From the NCBI GenBank assembly GCA_035248005.1, contig DATFHU010000006.1, positions 17,546-81,545 of the forward strand: 64,000 nucleotides of DNA, given 5' to 3'. The DNA is from Candidatus Saccharimonadales bacterium (GTDB lineage: Bacteria > Patescibacteriota > Saccharimonadia > Saccharimonadales > UBA4665). This document shows, piece by piece, positions 50,165 through 59,521 of the stretch. The notes below the pieces were generated by a model. The model was given only the letters and a program-made list of their open reading frames with translations, was not told the DNA's origin and did not search any database. The position numbers were made by a program, and so were the translations under genes. How positions within the stretch are numbered: position 1 is the stretch's first letter; each line of letters starts with the position of its first letter.

Positions 50165-50382
50165 AATGCTTCCTAAAGGTTTTTTATTTTTAGTTTAAAT
50201 ATTCTATAGCTTAGAATACGCTCTCATATTGCAAATGTCTACAATATGGCATGTCTGTGTAAAAAACATATGGTTGCTATGTTAGCCTGGCAATATAAGT
50301 CAGGACGCTCACATCGGACTACTTGGCCACTTACGGAATGGCTGTGCATGGTACAATACGAACAAGAATTAGAGGGAAATGC

Positions 50383-50748
50383 GTGACCAATAGCCACAAA
50401 AGCGTTTTGATTGTTGAGGACGAAAAGCCGCTTGCCGGTGCGCTGAAACTCAAGCTGGAGCACGAGGGCTTTTTGGTAACACTTGCTGTCACGGGACAGG
50501 AGTGCGTGGACTTGTGTAGTACCCGGCATTTCGATGTAATTTTACTCGACCTTATTATGCCTGCCATGGACGGATTTCAGGTACTGGAGTGGTTGCAAGA
50601 GCAGCCCAATCCGCCAACAGTGTTTGTTATTTCCAACCTTAGCCAGCCCGAAGATGAAGAGCGGGTACGCAAACTAGGCGCGCAAAAGTTTTTCGTTAAG
50701 TCCGATACTCCTTTGACTAAGATTGTTGACGAGGTTCAGAAAGTATAG
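50383..50748 (+). CDS. Stand-alone response regulator receiver
   Basis: IVEDE, LLDLIMP, ISN and FVK motifs. Confidence 0.92.
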   Translation: MTNSHKSVLIVEDEKPLAGALKLKLEHEGFLVTLAVTGQECVDLCSTRHFDVILLDLIMPAMDGFQVLEWLQEQPNPPTVFVISNLSQPEDEERVRKLGAQKFFVKSDTPLTKIVDEVQKV

Positions 50749-50764
50749 GCCGGCCGAGGTGGGT

Positions 50765-52417
50765 ATGTATCCGAGCATAGACGAAATCAAAAAGATACTG
50801 CTGCAAGAAAATTATATTTCCGAAGCAGACAGCCAGGCTGCCGAAGCTGCTTCGCACGACAGCGCGGGATATGTCGATTATCTTATCCGTGCCGATTTGC
50901 TCAGTAAGGCTTTGCTTGGTCAGGCGTTGGCCGAGGGATATCGTTTGCCATTTGCCGATCTTAGTGCACACCCGGTCGGCAAAGAAGAAGTACATAAAAT
51001 TCCAGAGCGTATCGCCCGTGCGCAGCGCGCGGTATTTATAAAGGCTTCTGATAAAGTAGCAGTCATTGCAACTGGCTCCCCGGAAAGTGCTGATGCTAAG
51101 GCATTGCAGCAGCTTTTCCCGCATCTAAAGATAAGCTTTGCTTATACCCTGCCGGAATATATCGAAGCCGCTTTTAATTTGTACGAACAACCGCTTGAAA
51201 CGCGATTTTCTAAGATTTTGAAGACAAGCCAGCGGGTAGCGCCGGAAGTTGTTGACGAAATTATAAAAGACGCGCTTAACTTCCAGGCTTCGGATATTCA
51301 TTTCGAGCCTCGCGGCAAGCAAGTAAGCGTCCGTTTCCGAGTGGACGGCGCGCTGCGCGAAGCCGGTAATGTACCCAAGGAGTATTACGACAATATTCTA
51401 AATCGCATAAAAGTCGAAAGCGGCATGCGTATCGACGAGCACCTGGCAGCCCAAGATGGCGCCATGCAGCGGGTGGTGGATGGGCGGAACGTCGATTTGC
51501 GTGTTTCGCTGGTGCCAACGGTCGAGGGGGAAAAAGTGACGATGCGGGTGCTTGGCTCGTATGTTGCAGGGTTTAGTTTTGCCGATGTCGGCTTGAGCGA
51601 TCAGCACCGCGAGATGGTCGAGCGCAGTATTATGAAGCCTTTCGGCATGATTTTAACGGTCGGCCCGACCGGTTCCGGCAAGACGACCACGCTCTATTCC
51701 CTGCTTAAGATGCTGAACAAATCGGACGTCAATATTACGACCATTGAAGACCCGGTAGAGTACAAAATGAGCGGCACCAACCAAATACAAGTGCGCGAAG
51801 CCGGTAATCTGACTTTTGCTAAGGGTTTACGGGCGATTGTTCGCCAAGACCCGGATGTTATTTTGGTGGGAGAAATCCGCGACCAAGAAACAGCCGAGAT
51901 ATCAGTAAACGCCGCCTTGACCGGCCACCTGCTGCTTTCGACGTTCCATGCCAACGACGCCGCAACAGCCATGCCTCGCCTGGTGGATATGGGCATCGAG
52001 CCGTTTTTATTGGCTTCTACGCTAGACATTATTATCGCGCAGCGCTTGGTACGCAAAATCTGCAGCCGCTGCCGGTACGGGCTGAGTATTGGCGAAGCCA
52101 CAGCTCATTTGCCAGTACAGAATTTGAATTGGTGGCACTATTTTAACGAAGGCGACACGGTGTACGCCGGTAAGGGCTGCGACACCTGCAGCGGCAGTGG
52201 CTACCACGGCCGGTCGGCTTTGTTCGAGATTGTTGAGGTAACGCCCCAGATGCAGGAGCTTATGCTGCGTTCCCCGTCGACGCGGGAAATCGAACAATTG
52301 GCTCGTACACAAGGGTGTCGCCCTATGTTTGAAGATGGTATTGAAAAGGTAAGGCGCGGCGTAACTACGCTTGCCGAGGTGGTGCGCGTAGTGCCGCCCA
52401 CGCCTGCGGAGAAGTAA
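50765..52417 (+). CDS. pilB: Type IV pilus/T2SS assembly ATPase (PilB/GspE)
   Basis: SDIHFEP, GPTGSGKTTT, TIEDPVE, RQDPDVILVGEIRD, TGHL.LST.H and the C..C/C..C zinc motif. Confidence 0.95.
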   Translation: MYPSIDEIKKILLQENYISEADSQAAEAASHDSAGYVDYLIRADLLSKALLGQALAEGYRLPFADLSAHPVGKEEVHKIPERIARAQRAVFIKASDKVAVIATGSPESADAKALQQLFPHLKISFAYTLPEYIEAAFNLYEQPLETRFSKILKTSQRVAPEVVDEIIKDALNFQASDIHFEPRGKQVSVRFRVDGALREAGNVPKEYYDNILNRIKVESGMRIDEHLAAQDGAMQRVVDGRNVDLRVSLVPTVEGEKVTMRVLGSYVAGFSFADVGLSDQHREMVERSIMKPFGMILTVGPTGSGKTTTLYSLLKMLNKSDVNITTIEDPVEYKMSGTNQIQVREAGNLTFAKGLRAIVRQDPDVILVGEIRDQETAEISVNAALTGHLLLSTFHANDAATAMPRLVDMGIEPFLLASTLDIIIAQRLVRKICSRCRYGLSIGEATAHLPVQNLNWWHYFNEGDTVYAGKGCDTCSGSGYHGRSALFEIVEVTPQMQELMLRSPSTREIEQLARTQGCRPMFEDGIEKVRRGVTTLAEVVRVVPPTPAEK

Positions 52418-53514
52418 TGGCAACTAAGGAGCGAAAAAATTGGTTAAGCGGGCTGCGCAAGATCCACTTTACGTACAAAGAACGTGAATATTTTAGCGCG
52501 AATTTAGCCATGATGTTACGGTCGGCGGTGCCAATCGGGCAAGCGCTTGATTCGTTGCGTAACACTACCAACAATCAGGCACTTAAAAAAACACTGGCTC
52601 AAATGCAAACCGATATCGAAGCCGGCCTTGGTTTGGCTGACGCCTTGCAGCGTTCGGGCCTGGTAAGTCCTCAAACGCTGGTGCTCGTCCGCCTGGGCGA
52701 AAAATCCGGGCATCTTATCGATAATTTAGAGTTGGCGGCCCAGCAGGAAGAAAAGCGGCACATGTTTGCGGCCCGGGTACGCTCGGCGCTTATTTATCCT
52801 TCGTTCGTATTGGGATTGACTGTGCTTGTGGGACTGGGTGTAGCGTGGTTTTTGTTGCCCCGGCTTGCCGTGACATTTTCGGAATTAAAAGTTGCTTTGC
52901 CGTTTATTACCAAAATGATGATCGGTTGCGGAGTGTTCTTAAGAGACTATGGCTACATAGCCGTGCCGCTAGGGTTGTTGGCGCTTGTTGCAAGCGGATA
53001 TGTATTATTCGTTGCGCCGCGTACCAGGGCAATCGGCATGCGCCTGCTATTCCGCTTGCCTGGCATAGGCCGTCTGATGAGCGAGGTAGAGATTGCACAG
53101 TTCGGTTATCTGCTGGGCACACTGCTCAATGCCGGTCTGCCAGTAACGCAGGCAGTTCGATTACTGGCCGGCGCTAGCACGGCCCCCCATTACAAACGTT
53201 TTTACACCTATTTGGCAGATTCGATTGGCGACGGGTACAGTTTTAAAGACAGTCTGCACCACTACACGGGCAGCTTGCAGCTTATACCGCCTGCCATACA
53301 ACAAATGATGATTGCCGGCGAGTCCTCTGGTTCGCTGCCCGAAGTGTTAGCTACTATAGGCCGGACCTACGAGCAAAAGTCGGACATTACCACGCAAAAT
53401 CTGCAGTCCATTCTTGAGCCTATTCTGCTGGTTATCGTGTGGATCGGCGTCATGTTGGTAGCAGTGGCGGTTATTGTACCGATTTACAGTTTGGTCGGGG
53501 GTTTGCGCCAGTAA
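52417..53514 (+). CDS. pilC: Type IV pilus/T2SS inner-membrane platform protein (PilC/GspF)
   Basis: GEKSG, ALIYP, GESSGSL and LEP motifs. Confidence 0.93.
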   Translation: MATKERKNWLSGLRKIHFTYKEREYFSANLAMMLRSAVPIGQALDSLRNTTNNQALKKTLAQMQTDIEAGLGLADALQRSGLVSPQTLVLVRLGEKSGHLIDNLELAAQQEEKRHMFAARVRSALIYPSFVLGLTVLVGLGVAWFLLPRLAVTFSELKVALPFITKMMIGCGVFLRDYGYIAVPLGLLALVASGYVLFVAPRTRAIGMRLLFRLPGIGRLMSEVEIAQFGYLLGTLLNAGLPVTQAVRLLAGASTAPHYKRFYTYLADSIGDGYSFKDSLHHYTGSLQLIPPAIQQMMIAGESSGSLPEVLATIGRTYEQKSDITTQNLQSILEPILLVIVWIGVMLVAVAVIVPIYSLVGGLRQ

Positions 53515-53948
53515 TGAAGCAACGAGGATTTACGCTCCTTGAGGTGTTGTTGTCGGTGACGATAATCACTGTGTTGGTTGGCGCGTCGTTGCCAGTGTAC
53601 GAATCATTTGTGCGCCGTAATGACCTGGACCTTACCACGCAAAGGGTCGCAGAGGCATTACGCCGGGCTCAAACCTATGCCCGGGCAGCCAAAGGGGATG
53701 TTGACTGGAGCGTAGCAGTACAAACTTCGGCTGTTACCTTATTTGAGGGTACGAATTTTGCCGGGCGTGATACCGGCATGGACGAAGTCATCACCCTTCC
53801 TGCTACGGTTACACCCGGCGGATTAAGTGAAGTGCGGTTTGCTAAATTCAGTGCCACCCCCAACACAACCGGTACGATTACGTTTAGTAGTACTATTAAC
53901 GATACGAGGATTATAACAATCAATGCCAAGGGTATGGTCGATTACTAA
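53514..53948 (+). CDS. Minor pilin / pseudopilin
   Basis: RGFTLLEVL class III signal. Confidence 0.9.
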   Translation: MKQRGFTLLEVLLSVTIITVLVGASLPVYESFVRRNDLDLTTQRVAEALRRAQTYARAAKGDVDWSVAVQTSAVTLFEGTNFAGRDTGMDEVITLPATVTPGGLSEVRFAKFSATPNTTGTITFSSTINDTRIITINAKGMVDY

Positions 53949-55389
53949 AACTGCGATCCAGGGCACGCTCCGGCGCGGCGCGTCAGACGCCATTCGCCAC
54001 GCCGGTTTCTCGGTGGTCGAGGTTATATTGGCCGCCACTGTTTTAGGCTTTTTGGCAACGGCACTTGTTGGCGCATTAGTGTATGGCAGATCATCGACAG
54101 CAGGTGCTGGCGACCGGACACGGGCGATTTTTTTGGCAGACGAGGGTTTTGAAGCAACACGCAATATTACTAATGCAGCCTACGCCAACCTTGTAGACGG
54201 CACGCGCGGCCTGACGCAAAGCGGCGGCCCGCTCGTATGGGCGTTTTTGGGTACAACCGATACCACGGGCATCTACACGCGCCAAATCACTATTGCCAGC
54301 GCCGGTACCGACCGCAAAAGCATTACTAGTACCGTAACCTGGCCGCAAGCCGGCGGCACAACAGGCAGTGCAGTCATAACGAGCCGTTTAACGAACTGGC
54401 GGGCGGCAATAGACTTATGGAGTAATGGCATTATAGCTGGCTCTGCGGATGCTACCGGAACCACCGATGCCATTAAAACCGATACCGTCGGTATATACGC
54501 CTATACGGTGCGCAATACCACCTCAAGCAATTTTGTCGTTACTGACATTTCTAACCCGGCAGCACCCGTCATTATTCGTACCGTAACTATTGCGGGAACA
54601 CCTACTAACATTACGGTGAGCGGTAACTACGCGTATGTTACTAATACAAGTGATACTGCCGAACTACAGGTGGTAGACGTTACTAATCCCGTAATAACAG
54701 CCCCTTCGGTTGTTCACAGCGTGAACATGACTGGCGCCGGTAATGGCCAAAGCGTGGCCGTGAGCGGTAACTACGCTTTTGTGGCGCGTGCCGCCGACAC
54801 GACCGCGGGCGCAAATGAATTCACGGTAGTTAACATTTCTAACCCTCTAACCGCCAGTGTGACAGGAGGTTACAATAATAATATATCGATGAATGGCATG
54901 ACTGTTTTGGGCAATTTTGCGTATGTTCCTACCAGTTCGACCACGCAGGAAATGTTGGTTATTAATATTACTACGCCGACTGCTCCTGCATTAACGATTG
55001 CCTATAACGCGCCCACTGCAGTTGCCGCTCAAACTATAAGCGGTTTCGGCAGCACAGTGTTTTTAGCTGCCGGCACCACGCTTCGTTCAATTAATGTAGC
55101 CACCCCTTCTGCACCCGTATCGTTAGGCACCTTTACGGCGGCGGGTACAATTAACGACATTGAAATAGATATTACGGATCAGTTCGCATTTTTAGGCACT
55201 TCCAGCACAACGGCCGAGTTCCAGGTAGTAAATATCGCAAATCCTGCGTCTATGTCCCTTACAAGGTCGGTTGATGCATCTGGAACTGCCACCACAATAA
55301 GCGGGGTGAGTTACAATAGCTCGTATGATATAGTGGTGGGCGCCAGCGCCTCTAATACCCAGGAAATCCTGGTGTTTAGGAGAAATTAG
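53923..55389 (+). CDS. Pilin fused to LVIVD-type beta-propeller repeats
   Basis: AGFSVVEVIL signal; repeats V.DISNP, VSGNYAYV, V.D.TNP, VVNI.NP; start uncertain. Confidence 0.8.
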   Translation: MPRVWSITKTAIQGTLRRGASDAIRHAGFSVVEVILAATVLGFLATALVGALVYGRSSTAGAGDRTRAIFLADEGFEATRNITNAAYANLVDGTRGLTQSGGPLVWAFLGTTDTTGIYTRQITIASAGTDRKSITSTVTWPQAGGTTGSAVITSRLTNWRAAIDLWSNGIIAGSADATGTTDAIKTDTVGIYAYTVRNTTSSNFVVTDISNPAAPVIIRTVTIAGTPTNITVSGNYAYVTNTSDTAELQVVDVTNPVITAPSVVHSVNMTGAGNGQSVAVSGNYAFVARAADTTAGANEFTVVNISNPLTASVTGGYNNNISMNGMTVLGNFAYVPTSSTTQEMLVINITTPTAPALTIAYNAPTAVAAQTISGFGSTVFLAAGTTLRSINVATPSAPVSLGTFTAAGTINDIEIDITDQFAFLGTSSTTAEFQVVNIANPASMSLTRSVDASGTATTISGVSYNSSYDIVVGASASNTQEILVFRRN

Positions 55390-55394
55390 GCGGT

Positions 55395-55919
55395 ATGCGA
55401 TGTATGCGGCGACATATAGAACGGCAGGCGGGTTACACACTCATCGAGCTGCTTTTGTATGTGTCGATTATTGGCGGCTTGTTGCTGTCGGTAACGTATT
55501 TTTTTGGCACGACCGCTGAAACGCGCGTTAAAAATCAAAGTATCAGCGAGGTGAACGACCAAGCCGCAGCCGTAATGGACACGATTACGCAGACGGTTCG
55601 TAATGCGGTATCCATTACCTCGCCCGCAGCTGGTGCGAGCGGTGCTTCCTTGACGCTAGTAGTACCTACTGGCAGTCTAAGTCCCACGGTGTTTGACTTA
55701 AGCGGCACGACTTTGCGAATAAAGGAGGGGACTGCTCCTACCATTAACCTTACGAATACCAAGGTACAGGTGACCAGTCTGACTTTTAGAAATTTGACCC
55801 GCACCGGCACTAACGGCATTGTGCAGATCAGTTTTACCATGAGCCGGGTTAATGCTAATAATCGCAACGAATACGATTTTCAGAAAACATTTACTTCTTC
55901 GGCGGAGGTAAGATGGTAA
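55395..55919 (+). CDS. Minor pilin (PilW-like)
   Basis: AGYTLIELL signal. Confidence 0.88.
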   Translation: MRCMRRHIERQAGYTLIELLLYVSIIGGLLLSVTYFFGTTAETRVKNQSISEVNDQAAAVMDTITQTVRNAVSITSPAAGASGASLTLVVPTGSLSPTVFDLSGTTLRIKEGTAPTINLTNTKVQVTSLTFRNLTRTGTNGIVQISFTMSRVNANNRNEYDFQKTFTSSAEVRW

Positions 55920-56311
55920 AGCTTCGGTCGGCTGCAAACGGGTACGTGGCTTTTATCGCCGTGCTTATTGTAGGCGCTGCGGCATTGGCTATCTCCTTGG
56001 CGGTACTATTAACCGGCGCCGACAGTCAGCGCGCTACCCTGGCCGAACAACAGTCAAAACAGGCCCGGGCATTAGCGGTGGGATGCGCACAGGAAGCTTT
56101 GCAGCAAATACACGACAACATTGCGTTTAGCGGCACAAATAATCTGTCGCTCGGCCAAGGAAATTGTACGTACACGGTTGCCGTTACCACTCCTACTACG
56201 CGCAGCGTTGCTGTTACCGGCACGGCCGGCACGGCAGTTAGAAAAATACAGGCGAACGTTACTGTCGGCTCAACAACCATAAGCGTTACTTCTTGGCAGG
56301 AAGTGTTGTGA
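55913..56311 (+). CDS. Minor pilin (PilX-like)
   Basis: NGYVAFIAVLI signal lacking E5; ARALAVGC..EAL. Confidence 0.75.
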   Translation: MVKLRSAANGYVAFIAVLIVGAAALAISLAVLLTGADSQRATLAEQQSKQARALAVGCAQEALQQIHDNIAFSGTNNLSLGQGNCTYTVAVTTPTTRSVAVTGTAGTAVRKIQANVTVGSTTISVTSWQEVL

Positions 56312-56394
56312 TGTGTGTTACAATTGCCGTATAAAGCATTAACGCTAACTAAACATAAGCTAATGATAGAATGCATAGCAAAAAGGGTGGACAG

Positions 56395-56871
56395 ATGAAA
56401 CTACTTAAGGTCATTAAAAGTCAAAAAGGCTTTACATTGCTTGAAGTACTGTTAGTCGTGGCTGTTATCGCGTTGCTTGCAGGCATTGTTATCATAGCTA
56501 TCAACCCCAACAAAAATCTAGGCGACACGCGTAACTCGCAGCGGTCGTCGGACGTGACCACTATACTCAACGCCGTATATCAGTATTCGCTCGACAACAA
56601 CGGCGGCGCTCCGCCTACTGGTACAGGCGCTGCCATTTCCGCCACGCCGACCGAGATTTGTAAAACCGGCGCTACCTGCACGGGTCTAATTGACCTTGGA
56701 GTGCTGGCCACTAATGGCAAGTATCTGGTATCTTTGCCGCTTGATCCGCAGTGTCCCACTCTTTGCGACGCAAATGGTAATGGTTACGAAATATCAAAAG
56801 ACACCAATAATCGTTATACCGTGAGCGCGCCCAATGCAGAGCAGGATAAAACTATATCGGCAACACGTTAG
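56395..56871 (+). CDS. Type IV major pilin-like 1
   Basis: KGFTLLEVLLVVAVIALLAGIVIIAINP; C-terminal Cys pairs. Confidence 0.92.
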   Translation: MKLLKVIKSQKGFTLLEVLLVVAVIALLAGIVIIAINPNKNLGDTRNSQRSSDVTTILNAVYQYSLDNNGGAPPTGTGAAISATPTEICKTGATCTGLIDLGVLATNGKYLVSLPLDPQCPTLCDANGNGYEISKDTNNRYTVSAPNAEQDKTISATR

Positions 56872-57143
56872 TGGCCGCCGGATAACTGCTATCGTTCGCT
56901 TGCAGTATGCTACAATGACCTTAGTAAGCATTAACATTATATAGATATGAAGAAGCGGATAGCTTTTATAAAAGAAGAGTTTTTGGATATGTTGCACGTT
57001 AAAGGAGCTATCAAGCGCCTGCAGCGTGGGTTTACGCTGCTCGAGGTTTTGCTGGTAGTAGCGGTTATCGCAATTTTAGCAGGCATTGTTATCATAGCTA
57101 TCAACCCCAACAAAAATCTAGGCGACACGCGTAACTCGCAGCG
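56479..57143 (+). repeat. 65-bp perfect direct repeat in the two pilin genes (56479-56543 and 57079-57143)
   Basis: GCAGGCATTGTTATCATAGCTATCAACCCCAACAAAAATCTAGGCGACACGCGTAACTCGCAGCG is identical in both copies, 600 bp apart. Confidence 0.95.
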
Positions 57144-57459
57144 TCAAACCGATGTAACAACTATTCTGAATGCAGTCTACCAATATAGCTTGGATAATAA
57201 TGGGGCGTTGCCAAGCGGTATTACCCTGACCGCCACCGAAGTCTGTAGAACAGGCGCTGGTTCATGTGCCGGTCTGGTGGATCTGAGCGTATTAACTGCG
57301 GCCGGCAAATACTTAGTGGCAATTCCGGCCGATCCGCAATGCCCCACCGTGTGTAACGCCAATGGCGTGGGGTATGAAATTAGGAGAGACGCTAATAGCC
57401 GGTTGATCGTTAATGCGCCGGACGCCGAACAGGGTAAGACTATTTCTGTGAACCGCTAG
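56947..57459 (+). CDS. Type IV major pilin-like 2
   Basis: RGFTLLEVLLVVAVIAILAGIVIIAINP; paralog of pilin 1. Confidence 0.92.
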   Translation: MKKRIAFIKEEFLDMLHVKGAIKRLQRGFTLLEVLLVVAVIAILAGIVIIAINPNKNLGDTRNSQRQTDVTTILNAVYQYSLDNNGALPSGITLTATEVCRTGAGSCAGLVDLSVLTAAGKYLVAIPADPQCPTVCNANGVGYEIRRDANSRLIVNAPDAEQGKTISVNR

Positions 57460-57597
57460 TATGCCCAAGCCAAAAGATGAGCGGCAGTTTAAGGTGTTTT
57501 TGGGCAACCCGTCAATCAAAATCTGTAAAAAAAATTACAGACATATAATACTGCTCGGTTATCATGATGAGCGATATTAACAAAAGGACAAACAAAC

Positions 57598-58308
57598 ATG
57601 ATGGTTCTGTACAATACGCTCATGGGCGTAGCCGCTGGCTTGGCCCTGATTCTGGTACCATTGCTCGGCCGTAAACTCTACCGGCGCGAACGAATAGCGC
57701 CCGAAGGCTGGTCGCTCACCTTTGCTGTTCTGGGAATTATCCTAACTTTTTTGGGCGGACTGATGACAGTGACCTGGCCGCTCACGGCAAACCCGCCAAT
57801 TAATATTATTTTCGCCGAACCCACTTTGGTGCTTGGACTTTTGCTACTTGCAGGGGCATGGTACCTGTGGCGTCAGCGATTAGTGGTTATGGCACTCGCG
57901 ACCGGCACAAAACATGAGGCGGATGAGGCGCAGACTACTATTGCGCGCGTACTTTCCCCTGTGTCTTGGCTTGTCCTGGCGCTTGGACTCATGCTGTTGG
58001 CTTGCACGCTGGCGATTTTACGCTTCGGGTTTGTGGGTGGCGCACCGGCGGAGGAGCCGATTAGCGGCCTGTTGCACGATAAGCCATGGATAGAGAATAC
58101 ATTCTTTGGCGTTATATACGGCCTGAGCGCCCTTGGCGCCCTGACAATGCCTTTCGTAGTACGCCGCCCAGCAAGCAAGCTGGCGTGGCTTATAGGTATT
58201 AGCTGGACTGTGGCAGGTGTAGCCTTTTTGTTATTTAGTGCTATGAATTACTACACGCATGTCGGCCTGCTGGTCAACCTGCTGGAAGGCAAGAATTTCG
58301 AATTTTAA
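57598..58308 (+). CDS. DUF981-like membrane protein
   Basis: YN, G..MT.TWPL...NIIF.EP motif; multiple TMs. Confidence 0.7.
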   Translation: MMVLYNTLMGVAAGLALILVPLLGRKLYRRERIAPEGWSLTFAVLGIILTFLGGLMTVTWPLTANPPINIIFAEPTLVLGLLLLAGAWYLWRQRLVVMALATGTKHEADEAQTTIARVLSPVSWLVLALGLMLLACTLAILRFGFVGGAPAEEPISGLLHDKPWIENTFFGVIYGLSALGALTMPFVVRRPASKLAWLIGISWTVAGVAFLLFSAMNYYTHVGLLVNLLEGKNFEF

Positions 58309-58360
58309 TATCAGCTGCGGATATGGTGCGCTTGTTAGTGCTTGTGCTACAATAAAAATC

Positions 58361-59521
58361 ATGCAAACCGGGCAATCCCCCCGACGGTACTCACCGCTAC
58401 TTATTATATTTGTATCTCTAGCTCTCGCTCTCATTTCGTTTTTTATACCTGTAGCTCCAGGGGTCAATAGTCCGGCCGAGGCTCACTGGCGGACTGCCGT
58501 GGCCATAGTAGTGTCGACGCTGCTGTTTGGGGCGGCGCTCTCTTTCCTAAGGGGGCTTAAAGGTTTTAAGACTAATTTAAGGGTGGCGTATATCCTGTTG
58601 GCTGTCGGTATAATTACCATGAGCCTGGCATTTTTTCAGCTGCCTATATTCGGCATATTTAATTTATGGGAAACGGATTGGGTAGACGCCGGTGGAGCTA
58701 TTTTGCCTTTTGGGTTTGCGACCATACTAGTTTACCTGGGCGCACGTAAGTTTGCTAAAACATTACAAGTGCGCAGCAAGTTAAAATCGTTTTGGCTCGT
58801 TTTTGCCGTTACTACCGTCTTTACGGTATTGCTTGGTATAGCTGGAAGCCTGTGGGTACAGTACGAATTGGAGGGTGTCGAAATATATATTGCTGTCACC
58901 GGGTGGACGGCAATATATGCCTTGTTTGCAGGTTTTCTGCTACATAAAATTACGAATACCATCGGCGTGTATTACCATAAAGCAATACGGGCGCTTGAGG
59001 TAGCTATTTTTGCACTCGGTCTGGGTGCGTTGCATGAGTCGCTTTCTACTTTTTATTTTAACAATGGTCATGCCTACAACGACTGGGGTATATATTTGTG
59101 GCCACTCGTAATTACCGGTTTATTGTTTGTTAAGGCAGGTTACGAGTTTCGTTTGCTTGCCTTGCAGGCTGTAGACGATAAAAAAGAAGAACATACTAAA
59201 GATGCCACTGACAGGGATCATATCGACAGCATAGTAGCTGTAGCCAGCCTGGCTTCGCGGCCAGAAGAAATAGATGCTATTTTGGATGACTTGCGTATGA
59301 TGACCGCGCACCTGGGTTCCGGTACAACACTAACCGCAGAAGACAGGCGACGAGCCCTTAGTATATATCATCGGCTAGAGACCTATCTAACCACCAGTGA
59401 TCCGGTGCGTAATTTTACCAAAGAAGAGGTGCGCAGTCGCGCTACGCCTGCTTTCCGTACCATTATTGACAAACACGATAAACCATTTACCTCTGCGCCT
59501 ACGCCTACCCACTCTTCGTAG
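58361..59521 (+). CDS. Polytopic membrane protein with C-terminal helical cytoplasmic domain
   Basis: About 8 TMs, then LASRPEEID.ILDDLR...Y..LE.YL...DP.R.FT.EE.R. Confidence 0.7.
   Translation: MQTGQSPRRYSPLLIIFVSLALALISFFIPVAPGVNSPAEAHWRTAVAIVVSTLLFGAALSFLRGLKGFKTNLRVAYILLAVGIITMSLAFFQLPIFGIFNLWETDWVDAGGAILPFGFATILVYLGARKFAKTLQVRSKLKSFWLVFAVTTVFTVLLGIAGSLWVQYELEGVEIYIAVTGWTAIYALFAGFLLHKITNTIGVYYHKAIRALEVAIFALGLGALHESLSTFYFNNGHAYNDWGIYLWPLVITGLLFVKAGYEFRLLALQAVDDKKEEHTKDATDRDHIDSIVAVASLASRPEEIDAILDDLRMMTAHLGSGTTLTAEDRRRALSIYHRLETYLTTSDPVRNFTKEEVRSRATPAFRTIIDKHDKPFTSAPTPTHSS

What the first reader, a model, noticed from the sequence alone, without database searches (positions are those of the whole stretch)
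56395..57459. 65-bp perfect identity tract between two synonymously diverged tandem pilins
Seen: 56479-56543 equals 57079-57143 exactly, including every wobble position. The immediately upstream codons for identical residues differ at most third positions (GGC TTT ACA TTG CTT GAA GTA vs GGG TTT ACG CTG CTC GAG GTT), and the downstream variable domains are diverged. Established: gene conversion and recombination among pilin copies drive antigenic variation in Neisseria, and type IV pili mediate host attachment in Saccharibacteria. Inference: recent gene conversion or a recombination hinge that can swap head domains, or collapse the pair by deleting 600 bp, to tune host range.
Basis: partly seen in the sequence, partly recalled or inferred. 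Interest (0 to 1): 0.62.

Follow-up and report, generated by a model that had tools for sequence, protein, structure and literature searches.

The report
Gene-conversion tract between tandem pilin genes
Two neighbouring pilus-subunit genes of a soil Saccharibacteria genome have diverged at nearly every silent site, except for one 65-base stretch that recombination recently copied from one gene into the other, which is a real but ordinary kind of event.

Summary
56479-56543 equals 57079-57143 exactly. The match is exactly 65 nt long and occurs only twice in the 1.5-Mb genome.

Both genes are full-length type IV major-pilin paralogues. They sit at the end of a pilB-pilC-minor-pilin cluster and each has its own promoter-like upstream box.

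Inside the tract, 21 of 21 codons for shared residues are identical. In the equally conserved flanks, only 5 of 35 are (Fisher 5e-11; 0 of 200,000 permutations). dS is 0 inside the tract and saturated outside it.

Across other genomes, silent sites within the tract are as randomised as in the flanks. Selection on the nucleotide sequence is therefore not the cause. No RNA family or RNA fold was found.

Tandem pairs of this pilin family in other Saccharibacteria and Patescibacteria carry their own exact tracts of 41-270 nt. Their boundaries differ, and nearly all lie in the segment coding the N-terminal helix.

The best explanation is a recent short RecA-type gene conversion, probably from gene A into gene B. 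It is one case of recurrent concerted evolution of the helix-coding segment.

The case does not fit the Neisseria pilE/pilS architecture.

The parts
56371..56871 (+). Pilin A, a type IV major-pilin paralogue. The ORF runs from ATG 56371. ATG 56395 is the alternative start, gives a 12-residue leader MKLLKVIKSQKG|FTLLE, and has GGGTGG 7 nt upstream.
   Evidence: PF07963 N_methyl hit of 31 bits against a cut-off of 21.2. G-1/F+1/E+5 motif. Called as a 166-aa gene in ENA contig k141_342672.
56947..57459 (+). Pilin B, the second type IV major-pilin paralogue. It is 73% identical in protein to A over the mature part. It has a long leader, and relatives align from residue ~9.
   Evidence: PF07963 hit of 32.9 bits. 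The AF2 model has pLDDT 90.1, with helix 4-25, a kink, helix 27-56, then a beta head. tblastn in relatives.
56479..56543 (+). The 65-nt identity tract in pilin A. It covers codons for mature residues A17-Q37 plus 2 nt of R38. This is the end of alpha1-N, the N25-P26 kink and the start of alpha1-C. A is the probable donor copy.
   Evidence: The tract's codon choice fits A's usage elsewhere better than B's (sum lnLR +9.2; TCG, ATA, CTA, CAG). This is a weak inference.
57079..57143 (+). The 65-nt identity tract in pilin B, the probable recipient copy.
56313..56356 (+). Conserved upstream box of pilin A (GTGTGTTACAAT...AAGCATTAAC). It resembles an extended -10 promoter.
   Evidence: Direct-repeat family D2, 70% identical to 56905-56948. 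Alignment. The simple sigma-70 scan did not call it, so the promoter role is inferred.
56905..56948 (+). Conserved upstream box of pilin B (GTATGCTACAAT...AAGCATTAAC). The duplicated unit therefore includes its own promoter-like region.
50323..56311 (+). Genomic context, a type IV pilus cluster: response regulator (50323), PilB ATPase (50723-52417), PilC platform (52417-53514), minor pilin (53505-53948), pilin-like LVIVD beta-propeller protein (53923-55389), minor pilin (55395-55919) and a 132-aa ORF (55913-56311).
   Evidence: Pfam: T2SSE 404 bits, T2SSF 159 bits, N_methyl, LVIVD 78 bits. The order minor pilin, 132-aa ORF, pilin(s) is conserved in the genus.

Best explanation
Pilin A and pilin B are two old, full-length, separately promoted tandem paralogues of the major type IV pilin of a soil Saccharibacteria (Saccharimonadales) genome. 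A recent, short, non-reciprocal homologous recombination event (gene conversion) overwrote about 65 nt of one copy with the sequence of the other, probably A into B. RecA is the presumed agent, acting on misaligned sister or intramolecular copies. The tract lies in the segment coding the second half of the N-terminal alpha1 helix (mature A17-R38). There the two proteins are identical anyway, so the event is selectively neutral at the protein level. The tract ends on the 3' side exactly where the paralogue-specific residues begin (QR|SS vs QR|QT). This is one snapshot of a recurrent process. In this pilin family across Patescibacteria, tandem copies repeatedly homogenise pieces of the alpha1-coding region while the head domains stay diverged. 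What is shown: the tract, its statistical excess, the saturated background, the absence of between-species nucleotide constraint, the recurrence in other genomes, and the presence of recA. What is inferred: the mechanism (RecA-dependent conversion), the direction (A to B), and neutrality.
For: The 65-nt match is exact and occurs only twice in the genome. In the tract 21/21 codons are identical against 5/35 in the flanks, with Fisher 4.9e-11 and 0/200,000 permutations. dS is 0 inside and saturated outside, while dN in the head is 0.29. Across 114 family members from other genomes, the fraction of same-residue codons that are identical in the tract is 0.19-0.52. That equals random codon choice and is the same as in the flanks, so the nucleotide sequence itself is not conserved. 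Relatives have their own tracts with different boundaries and sequences: G015 117 nt, L046 116 nt, L048 67 nt, L050 197 nt, L058 272 nt, L073 71 nt, L092 50 nt, L098 47 nt. Four of 10 further metagenomic pairs carry 41-68-nt tracts. The G016, G009 and G011 copies pair up as orthologues in the head-domain tree. Monophyly of the G016 pair is rejected (AU p=0.026), yet its tract region is partly homogenised, with 3/21 codons differing against 10/17 upstream. RecA is present at 476 bits. There is no Rfam hit and no stable fold, with z=+1.2. An ENA MEGAHIT contig of 260 kb (k=141, longer than the tract) is 100% identical over 7 kb.
Against: Assembly correctness at the two tracts therefore rests on indirect arguments. 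The ENA contig may derive from the same reads. No strain-level relative exists in the collections (best 75% protein identity), so no pre-conversion allele or donor could be observed. For the own pair, the head-domain tree cannot show that the duplication predates speciation (AU p=0.34). Its age rests on saturated dS only. The flanks are more different than random codon choice predicts (5 identical against 11.3 expected, P=0.011). Simple neutral divergence does not explain this.
Confidence: 0.85

Rival explanations
1. Programmed recombination hinge. On this reading the identical tract is maintained because it serves as a crossover point. The crossover would let the cell delete 600 bp (giving a chimera of the A leader and N-terminus with the B head), amplify the array, or swap heads. 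That would give phase or antigenic-type variation of the pilus and so change host attachment.
For: A 65-nt perfect direct repeat is longer than the homology RecA is generally held to need (my own knowledge; the figure was not checked here). Any crossover between the tracts would be in frame. The copy number of this pilin at the syntenic site is 1 or 2 across the genus. Tracts recur in the same helix-coding region in many lineages. T4P pilins matter for host binding in cultured Saccharibacteria (PMC11623550, PMC9894109).
Against: No variant allele was observed. Tract positions and lengths differ between genomes, and many tandem pairs have none, for example G009 and G031 in the same codons. This fits sporadic neutral conversion better than a maintained site. 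There are no recombinase gene, inverted repeats or G4 motif nearby. The flanks of the tract are, if anything, more diverged than chance, the opposite of what a maintained homology region would show.
Confidence: 0.08
2. Assembly or consensus artefact. On this reading the two real genes differ in the tract and the assembler copied one version into both.
For: The genome is a short-read MAG. Reads could not be inspected. The only other record with these proteins may come from the same data.
Against: The contig name shows MEGAHIT with final k=141, which is longer than the 65-nt repeat. Every k-mer through a tract is therefore anchored in unique, highly diverged flanks. The same phenomenon occurs in at least 12 independent assemblies from different studies and assemblers. 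One of them (L050, 197-nt tract) has a contig name in the style of the Flye long-read assembler; that reading of the name is from my own knowledge and was not tested. The tract ends on codon-level boundaries consistent with biology.
Confidence: 0.04
3. A nucleotide-level functional element kept identical in both mRNAs or genes by selection. Candidates are an sRNA target, an RNA structure, a protein-binding site or a translational pause signal.
For: Perfect conservation of every wobble base is what such an element would produce. Both genes would be co-regulated.
Against: Between genomes, the silent sites of the same codons are fully randomised, just like the flanks. There is no Rfam match at E<=1. 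The folding energy is no better than shuffles, with z=+1.2. There is no third copy or complementary site in the genome. In relatives the homogenised piece shifts position.
Confidence: 0.03

Closest known systems
Concerted evolution by short-tract gene conversion between bacterial paralogues (for example tufA/tufB in Salmonella, rRNA operons; from my own knowledge)
   Same: A non-reciprocal, homology-dependent copy of a short segment between two copies in one genome. It leaves a patch of zero divergence in an otherwise diverged pair. RecA is present.
   Different: Here only a 65-nt patch is homogenised in an otherwise saturated pair. The copies are tandem and 600 nt apart. The process is confined mostly to the helix-coding part while the heads stay different.
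Neisseria gonorrhoeae/meningitidis pilE-pilS pilin antigenic variation (PMC13321361, PMC4023411, PMC4877100)
   Same: Gene conversion among pilin gene copies, with the pilus as the cell's contact organ.
   Different: pilS donors are promoterless and lack the 5' constant region. Conversion moves variable head segments into one expressed locus and depends on a G4 motif. Here both copies are complete, the constant N-terminal helix is what is converted, no G4 is present, and only two close copies exist.
Tandem major-pilin paralogues in other bacteria (Legionella PilA1/PilA2, PMC13170364; Pseudomonas stutzeri pilAI/pilAII and Kingella pilA1/pilA2 from my own knowledge)
   Same: Two adjacent, related, full-length major-pilin genes next to pilus machinery or minor pilins.
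   Different: In those systems the interest is division of labour between the two pilins. A silent-site identity tract of this kind is not, to my knowledge, part of their description. It was not found in three literature searches.
Saccharibacteria T4P-1/T4P-2 major pilins PilA1 and PilA2 of Nanosynbacter lyticus TM7x (PMC11623550)
   Same: Small lollipop-type major pilins of Saccharibacteria. They are encoded with minor pilins, including a beta-propeller-bearing one (PilX2-like; here the LVIVD protein at 53923-55389).
   Different: TM7x PilA1 and PilA2 lie in different loci and belong to two different filaments. Here the two copies are adjacent paralogues of one type. Orthology to PilA1 or PilA2 was not tested.

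Membership tests
Type IV pilin (class III signal peptide protein) | N-terminal methylation / prepilin-peptidase motif (PF07963) with G-1, F+1, E+5 | tested here: met
   31.0 and 32.9 bits against a cut-off of 21.2. KG|FTLLE and RG|FTLLE are seen in the sequence.
Type IV pilin (class III signal peptide protein) | Lollipop fold: an N-terminal alpha helix of about 50 residues followed by a globular beta head | tested here: met
   AF2 model with pLDDT 90.1, helices 4-25 and 27-56, then 4 strands. Foldseek found no solved structure like the head. phmmer to PDB matches pilins in the helix only.
Type IV pilin (class III signal peptide protein) | Encoded with or near pilus assembly genes (PilB ATPase, PilC platform), with a prepilin peptidase in the genome | tested here: met
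   T2SSE, T2SSF and minor pilins lie directly upstream. Peptidase_A24 is at G000:C10, 45.6 bits against a cut-off of 26.5.
Type IV pilin (class III signal peptide protein) | Major (filament-forming) rather than minor pilin | not testable with these tools
   Inferred from small size, position at the end of the cluster and own promoter-like box. Expression or filament data are needed.
Gene conversion / concerted evolution between paralogues | A tract whose divergence is significantly lower than the background of the same pair | tested here: met
   21/21 against 5/35 identical codons, P=4.9e-11, and 0/200,000 permutations. dS is 0 inside and saturated outside.
Gene conversion / concerted evolution between paralogues | Identity not explained by purifying selection on the nucleotide sequence | tested here: met
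   Between-genome codon identity in the tract equals random expectation and equals the flanks. No RNA family or fold was found.
Gene conversion / concerted evolution between paralogues | Paralogues group by genome in the converted part but by orthologue elsewhere | tested here: inconclusive
   The G016, G009 and G011 copies group by orthologue in the head tree, and G016-pair monophyly is rejected at p=0.026. For the own pair, monophyly is not rejected (p=0.34).
Gene conversion / concerted evolution between paralogues | Homologous recombination machinery present | tested here: met
   RecA at 475.9 bits at G000:C8.
Gene conversion / concerted evolution between paralogues | Pre-conversion allele or donor/recipient seen in a close strain or in reads | not testable with these tools
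No relative is closer than 75% protein identity. The 65-mer is absent from metagenome contigs.
Neisseria-type pilE/pilS antigenic variation | Silent, promoterless, 5'-truncated donor cassettes feeding one expression locus | tested here: not met
   Both copies have a start codon, leader, full helix and a conserved upstream box.
Neisseria-type pilE/pilS antigenic variation | Conversion transfers variable head segments | tested here: not met
   The tract lies in the invariant helix. The heads remain at dN 0.29 with saturated dS.
Neisseria-type pilE/pilS antigenic variation | G-quadruplex-forming motif upstream of the expressed gene | tested here: not met
   No G3+N1-7 x4 motif on either strand of 55000-58500.
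Site-specific pilin switches (Moraxella Piv inversion, shufflon Rci) | Inverted repeats flanking the exchangeable segment and an adjacent recombinase gene | tested here: not met
   The repeats are direct. Neighbours are pil genes, DUF981, an unknown 420-aa protein, a RidA-like protein and a Cho/UvrC-like nuclease, with no recombinase.

The most novel reading that the evidence does not exclude
The alpha1-coding segment of tandem pilin arrays in Saccharibacteria and other Patescibacteria may act as a used recombination hinge. Recurrent homogenisation would keep a crossover substrate. RecA could then generate, at appreciable frequency, single-copy chimeras (A leader plus B head), amplified arrays or head swaps. 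Because these pili are thought to take up DNA, swaps might also involve incoming DNA. The result would be population-level variation of the host-contact filament. The unusually strong silent divergence next to the tract (P about 0.01) would then mark selection that confines exchange to one short window.
Probability: 0.08. Interest if true: 0.7.

Novelty: new member of a known kind. Interest (0 to 1): 0.3.

Why it matters
The finding shows that homologous recombination is active on a very short scale in a reduced epibiont genome, and that pilin arrays of Patescibacteria evolve in concert in their helix-coding part. This matters in practice for anyone building pilin phylogenies, calling orthologues or assembling these loci. 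The N-terminal third of the gene carries the history of the genome, not of the gene copy, and exact repeats of 40-270 nt sit about 500-600 nt apart. It also creates a substrate for copy-number change of the main host-contact protein. That could be relevant to host range only if such variants are shown to occur. As it stands, this is an expected consequence of tandem duplication, not a new mechanism.

Tried and rejected
- **Exact 65-mer scan of metagenome contigs:** no match.
- **Exact-protein look-ups:** these returned only one other record, ENA k141_342672, which is identical in DNA. Both 90% clusters are singletons, so no allelic or chimeric variants are on record.
- **Protein-based scans of genome contigs and metagenome contigs:** these gave no relative closer than 75% identity, so no strain-level dating of the event was possible.
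- **RNA element hypothesis:** no Rfam hit, folding no better than shuffles and no cross-species silent-site conservation. Rejected.
- **Neisseria-like and invertase-like systems:** defining features were tested and not met.
- **Head-domain tree to prove that the own duplication predates speciation:** inconclusive (64/81 support, AU p=0.34).
- **Foldseek of the AF2 model against PDB:** no meaningful match.
- **Simple sigma-70 scan:** it did not call promoters upstream of either pilin. The promoter role of the shared TACAAT box remains an inference.
- **Whole-gene permutation p-values for other pairs:** these are liberal, because the N-terminus is more conserved at the protein level. For the own pair the test was restricted to the conserved 59 codons.

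Full report
**Observation.** The two stretches 56479-56543 and 57079-57143 are identical. The match cannot be extended on either side, so it is exactly 65 nt. Allowing 3 mismatches, the window holds only these two copies against 0 expected. The whole 1.50-Mb, 22-contig genome holds no third copy on either strand. The copies are exactly 600 nt apart. They lie inside a 176-nt direct repeat that is only 77% identical overall.

**What the genes are.** Both ORFs (56371 or 56395 to 56871, and 56947 to 57459) hit the prepilin N-terminal methylation motif PF07963 above its cut-off. Both carry G|FTLLE. They close a cluster made of:
- a response regulator;
- the PilB ATPase (T2SSE, 404 bits);
- the PilC platform (T2SSF);
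- a minor pilin;
- a pilin-like LVIVD beta-propeller protein;
- a further minor pilin;
- a 132-aa ORF.

A prepilin peptidase (Peptidase_A24) is encoded elsewhere in the genome. An AlphaFold2 model of pilin B, built on a 70-sequence alignment, has pLDDT 90.1. It shows the lollipop layout: helix 4-25, a break at N-P, helix 27-56, then a small beta head. No solved structure resembles the head.

The tract encodes mature residues A17-Q37 and two bases of R38. This is the end of alpha1-N, the N25-P26 kink and the first third of alpha1-C. Each gene is preceded by a related 44-nt box containing TG-n-TACAAT. The duplicated unit of about 600 nt therefore appears to include its own promoter. This is inferred, because the simple promoter scan did not call it. 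Record titles of the nearest relatives place the genome in Saccharibacteria/Saccharimonadales.

**Is it more than chance?** In the first 59 codons, counted from the G-1 codon, the two proteins align without gaps and are almost identical. There, 21 of 21 degenerate same-residue codons are identical inside the tract, against 5 of 35 outside. Fisher P is 4.9e-11. Shuffling codon columns within this conserved block never reached 65 nt in 200,000 trials, with a maximum of 44. Nei-Gojobori dS is 0 in the tract. It is too saturated to compute in both N-terminal flanks and in the head, where dN is 0.29. The pair is therefore old and the tract is young.

**Selection on the nucleotides, or recent copying?** I collected 114 distinct members of this pilin family from 41 related genomes and 80 GTDB-species loci. 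For every codon position I asked how often two genes from different genomes use the same codon when they share the residue. Within the tract the values are 0.19-0.52. That is about 0.25 for four-fold and about 0.5 for two-fold codons, and it cannot be told apart from the flanks. The sequence of the tract is thus free to drift between species, so its identity within this genome cannot be due to a conserved RNA or DNA signal. In agreement, Rfam finds nothing at E<=1, and the 65-mer folds no better than shuffles, with z=+1.2.

**Relatives.** They do, but irregularly.

Tandem pairs in the same genus:

| Genome | Result |
|---|---|
| G015 | Exact tract of 117 nt (plus 4 nt upstream) that ends at the same ...CAGCG as here |
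| G016 | Partly homogenised tract: 3/21 codons differ against 10/17 upstream |
| G011 | Intermediate: 6/20 codons differ |
| G009 | No homogenisation in these codons: 11/20 differ |
| G031 | No homogenisation in these codons: 15/20 differ |

Other Patescibacteria:

| Locus | Longest exact tract (nt) |
|---|---|
| L046 | 116 |
| L048 | 67 (almost the same coordinates as here) |
| L050 | 197 |
| L058 | 272 |
| L073 | 71 |
| L092 | 50 |
| L098 | 47 |

Four of ten further pairs from JGI metagenomes carry exact runs of 41-68 nt. Nearly all tracts lie in the first ~200 nt, which code the helix. G016 and G009 also have shorter runs in the head (47 and 33 nt).

In the head-domain tree, the G016, G009 and G011 copies group by orthologue. 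Monophyly of the G016 pair is rejected (AU p=0.026). This is the classical signature of concerted evolution after an old duplication. For the own pair the tree weakly puts A with the first and B with the second G015 copy. Monophyly of the own pair is not rejected (p=0.34), so this point is open.

**Mechanism.** The most economical reading is a recent short gene conversion between misaligned tandem copies.
- RecA is present.
- The 3' end of the tract coincides with the first paralogue-specific residues (QR|SS vs QR|QT). Four other long tracts end within 3 nt of the same point. The end may be set by heteroduplex rejection or by selection against changing the head; this is inference.
- The 5' end lies in the middle of identical protein sequence, so it is not set by protein constraint.
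- Codon choice in the tract (TCG, ATA, CTA, CAG, GAC) matches what gene A uses elsewhere better than what gene B uses (sum lnLR +9.2). A is therefore the likelier donor, but the counts are small.

**The hinge idea.** A 65-nt perfect direct repeat 600 nt apart is a possible substrate for RecA-mediated deletion, giving an in-frame chimera of the A leader with the B head, or for amplification. The copy number at the syntenic site (minor pilin, 132-aa ORF, pilin) is 1 in nine and 2 in six of the genus genomes examined. That is compatible with birth and death by unequal exchange, but it does not show it.

I could not look for variant alleles:
- the 65-mer is absent from the metagenome collection;
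- both proteins are singletons at 90% identity;
- no relative closer than 75% was found.

Several points argue against a maintained hinge. Tract positions and ages vary, many pairs have none, and there is no recombinase, inverted repeat or G4 motif. The flanks are also more different than random codon choice predicts, with 5 identical against 11.3 expected (P=0.011, post hoc).

**Artefact?** This could not be excluded by reads. The only other record, an ENA MEGAHIT contig of 260 kb against 96 kb for the MAG contig, is 100% identical over 7 kb. Its name shows a final k of 141, which is longer than the repeat. The flanks are far too diverged for a collapse. The same kind of tract is present in a dozen independent assemblies from different studies and assemblers. 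I put this rival at about 4%.

**Comparison with known systems.** This works like ordinary concerted evolution of bacterial paralogues by short-tract conversion. It is not a member of the Neisseria pilE/pilS system. There are no truncated silent cassettes, the constant part rather than the variable part is converted, and there is no G4 motif. It is also not an invertase-type pilin switch. Tandem major pilins are known elsewhere (Legionella PilA1/PilA2, PMC13170364). Saccharibacteria pilins are known to mediate host binding (PMC11623550, PMC9894109). Three full-text searches found no description of pilin gene conversion in Patescibacteria.

**Verdict.** The adaptive hinge and host-range half is unsupported and untested. 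The feature is real, is a new example of a well-known process, and is of modest interest.

Noticed in passing
window 56428-56478 and 56544-56604 vs 57028-57078 and 57144-57204: Next to the tract, the two copies are more different at silent sites than random codon choice predicts. Only 5 of 35 same-residue codons are identical, against 11.3 expected from the window's codon usage (P=0.011, post hoc). GC3 in codons 38-58 is 0.76 in A and 0.33 in B. This could be chance, a mosaic of older conversions or imports, or selection against homology between tandem copies.
   Followed up: partly
loci L047-L112: This small pilin, including its head with two conserved Cys, is 55-75% identical in protein across very distant Patescibacteria lineages (Saccharibacteria, Uhr-, Magasanik-, Moranii-, Doudna-, Daviesbacteria, WWE3, Berkelbacteria, Peribacteria). 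It is also found in MAGs labelled Gammaproteobacteria, Bdellovibrionales and Pirellulales. That is unusually conserved for a major pilin. It points to horizontal spread, strong constraint, or mis-binned or mislabelled contigs.
   Followed up: no
L060, L076, L078, L096: In some Magasanikbacteria-type loci and loci labelled 'Gammaproteobacteria', genes with the same pilin N-terminus but 530-556 residues long lie close to a small pilin of this family (directly beside it in L060, about 1.7 kb away in the others). These look like pilins with large added domains.
   Followed up: no
window 53923-55389 (+): A 488-aa protein has a pilin-like hydrophobic N-terminus and LVIVD beta-propeller repeats (78 bits) inside the minor-pilin block. 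It recalls the beta-propeller minor pilin PilX2, which is needed for host binding in TM7x (PMC11623550). It is a candidate tip adhesin.
   Followed up: no
G009, G016, G011, G021, G007, G002, G003, G017 loci: In these genus members about 750 nt separate the 132-aa ORF from the pilin(s). In the window's genome and in G001, G004, G005, G010 and G020 the pilin follows directly. The content of the extra segment was not examined.
   Followed up: no
window 57598-58308 (+) and 58259-59521 (+): A DUF981 membrane protein (84 bits) and a 420-aa multi-pass membrane-looking protein with no Pfam hit follow the pilins. DUF981 was not found beside the pilins within the flanks held for the genus loci.
   Followed up: no
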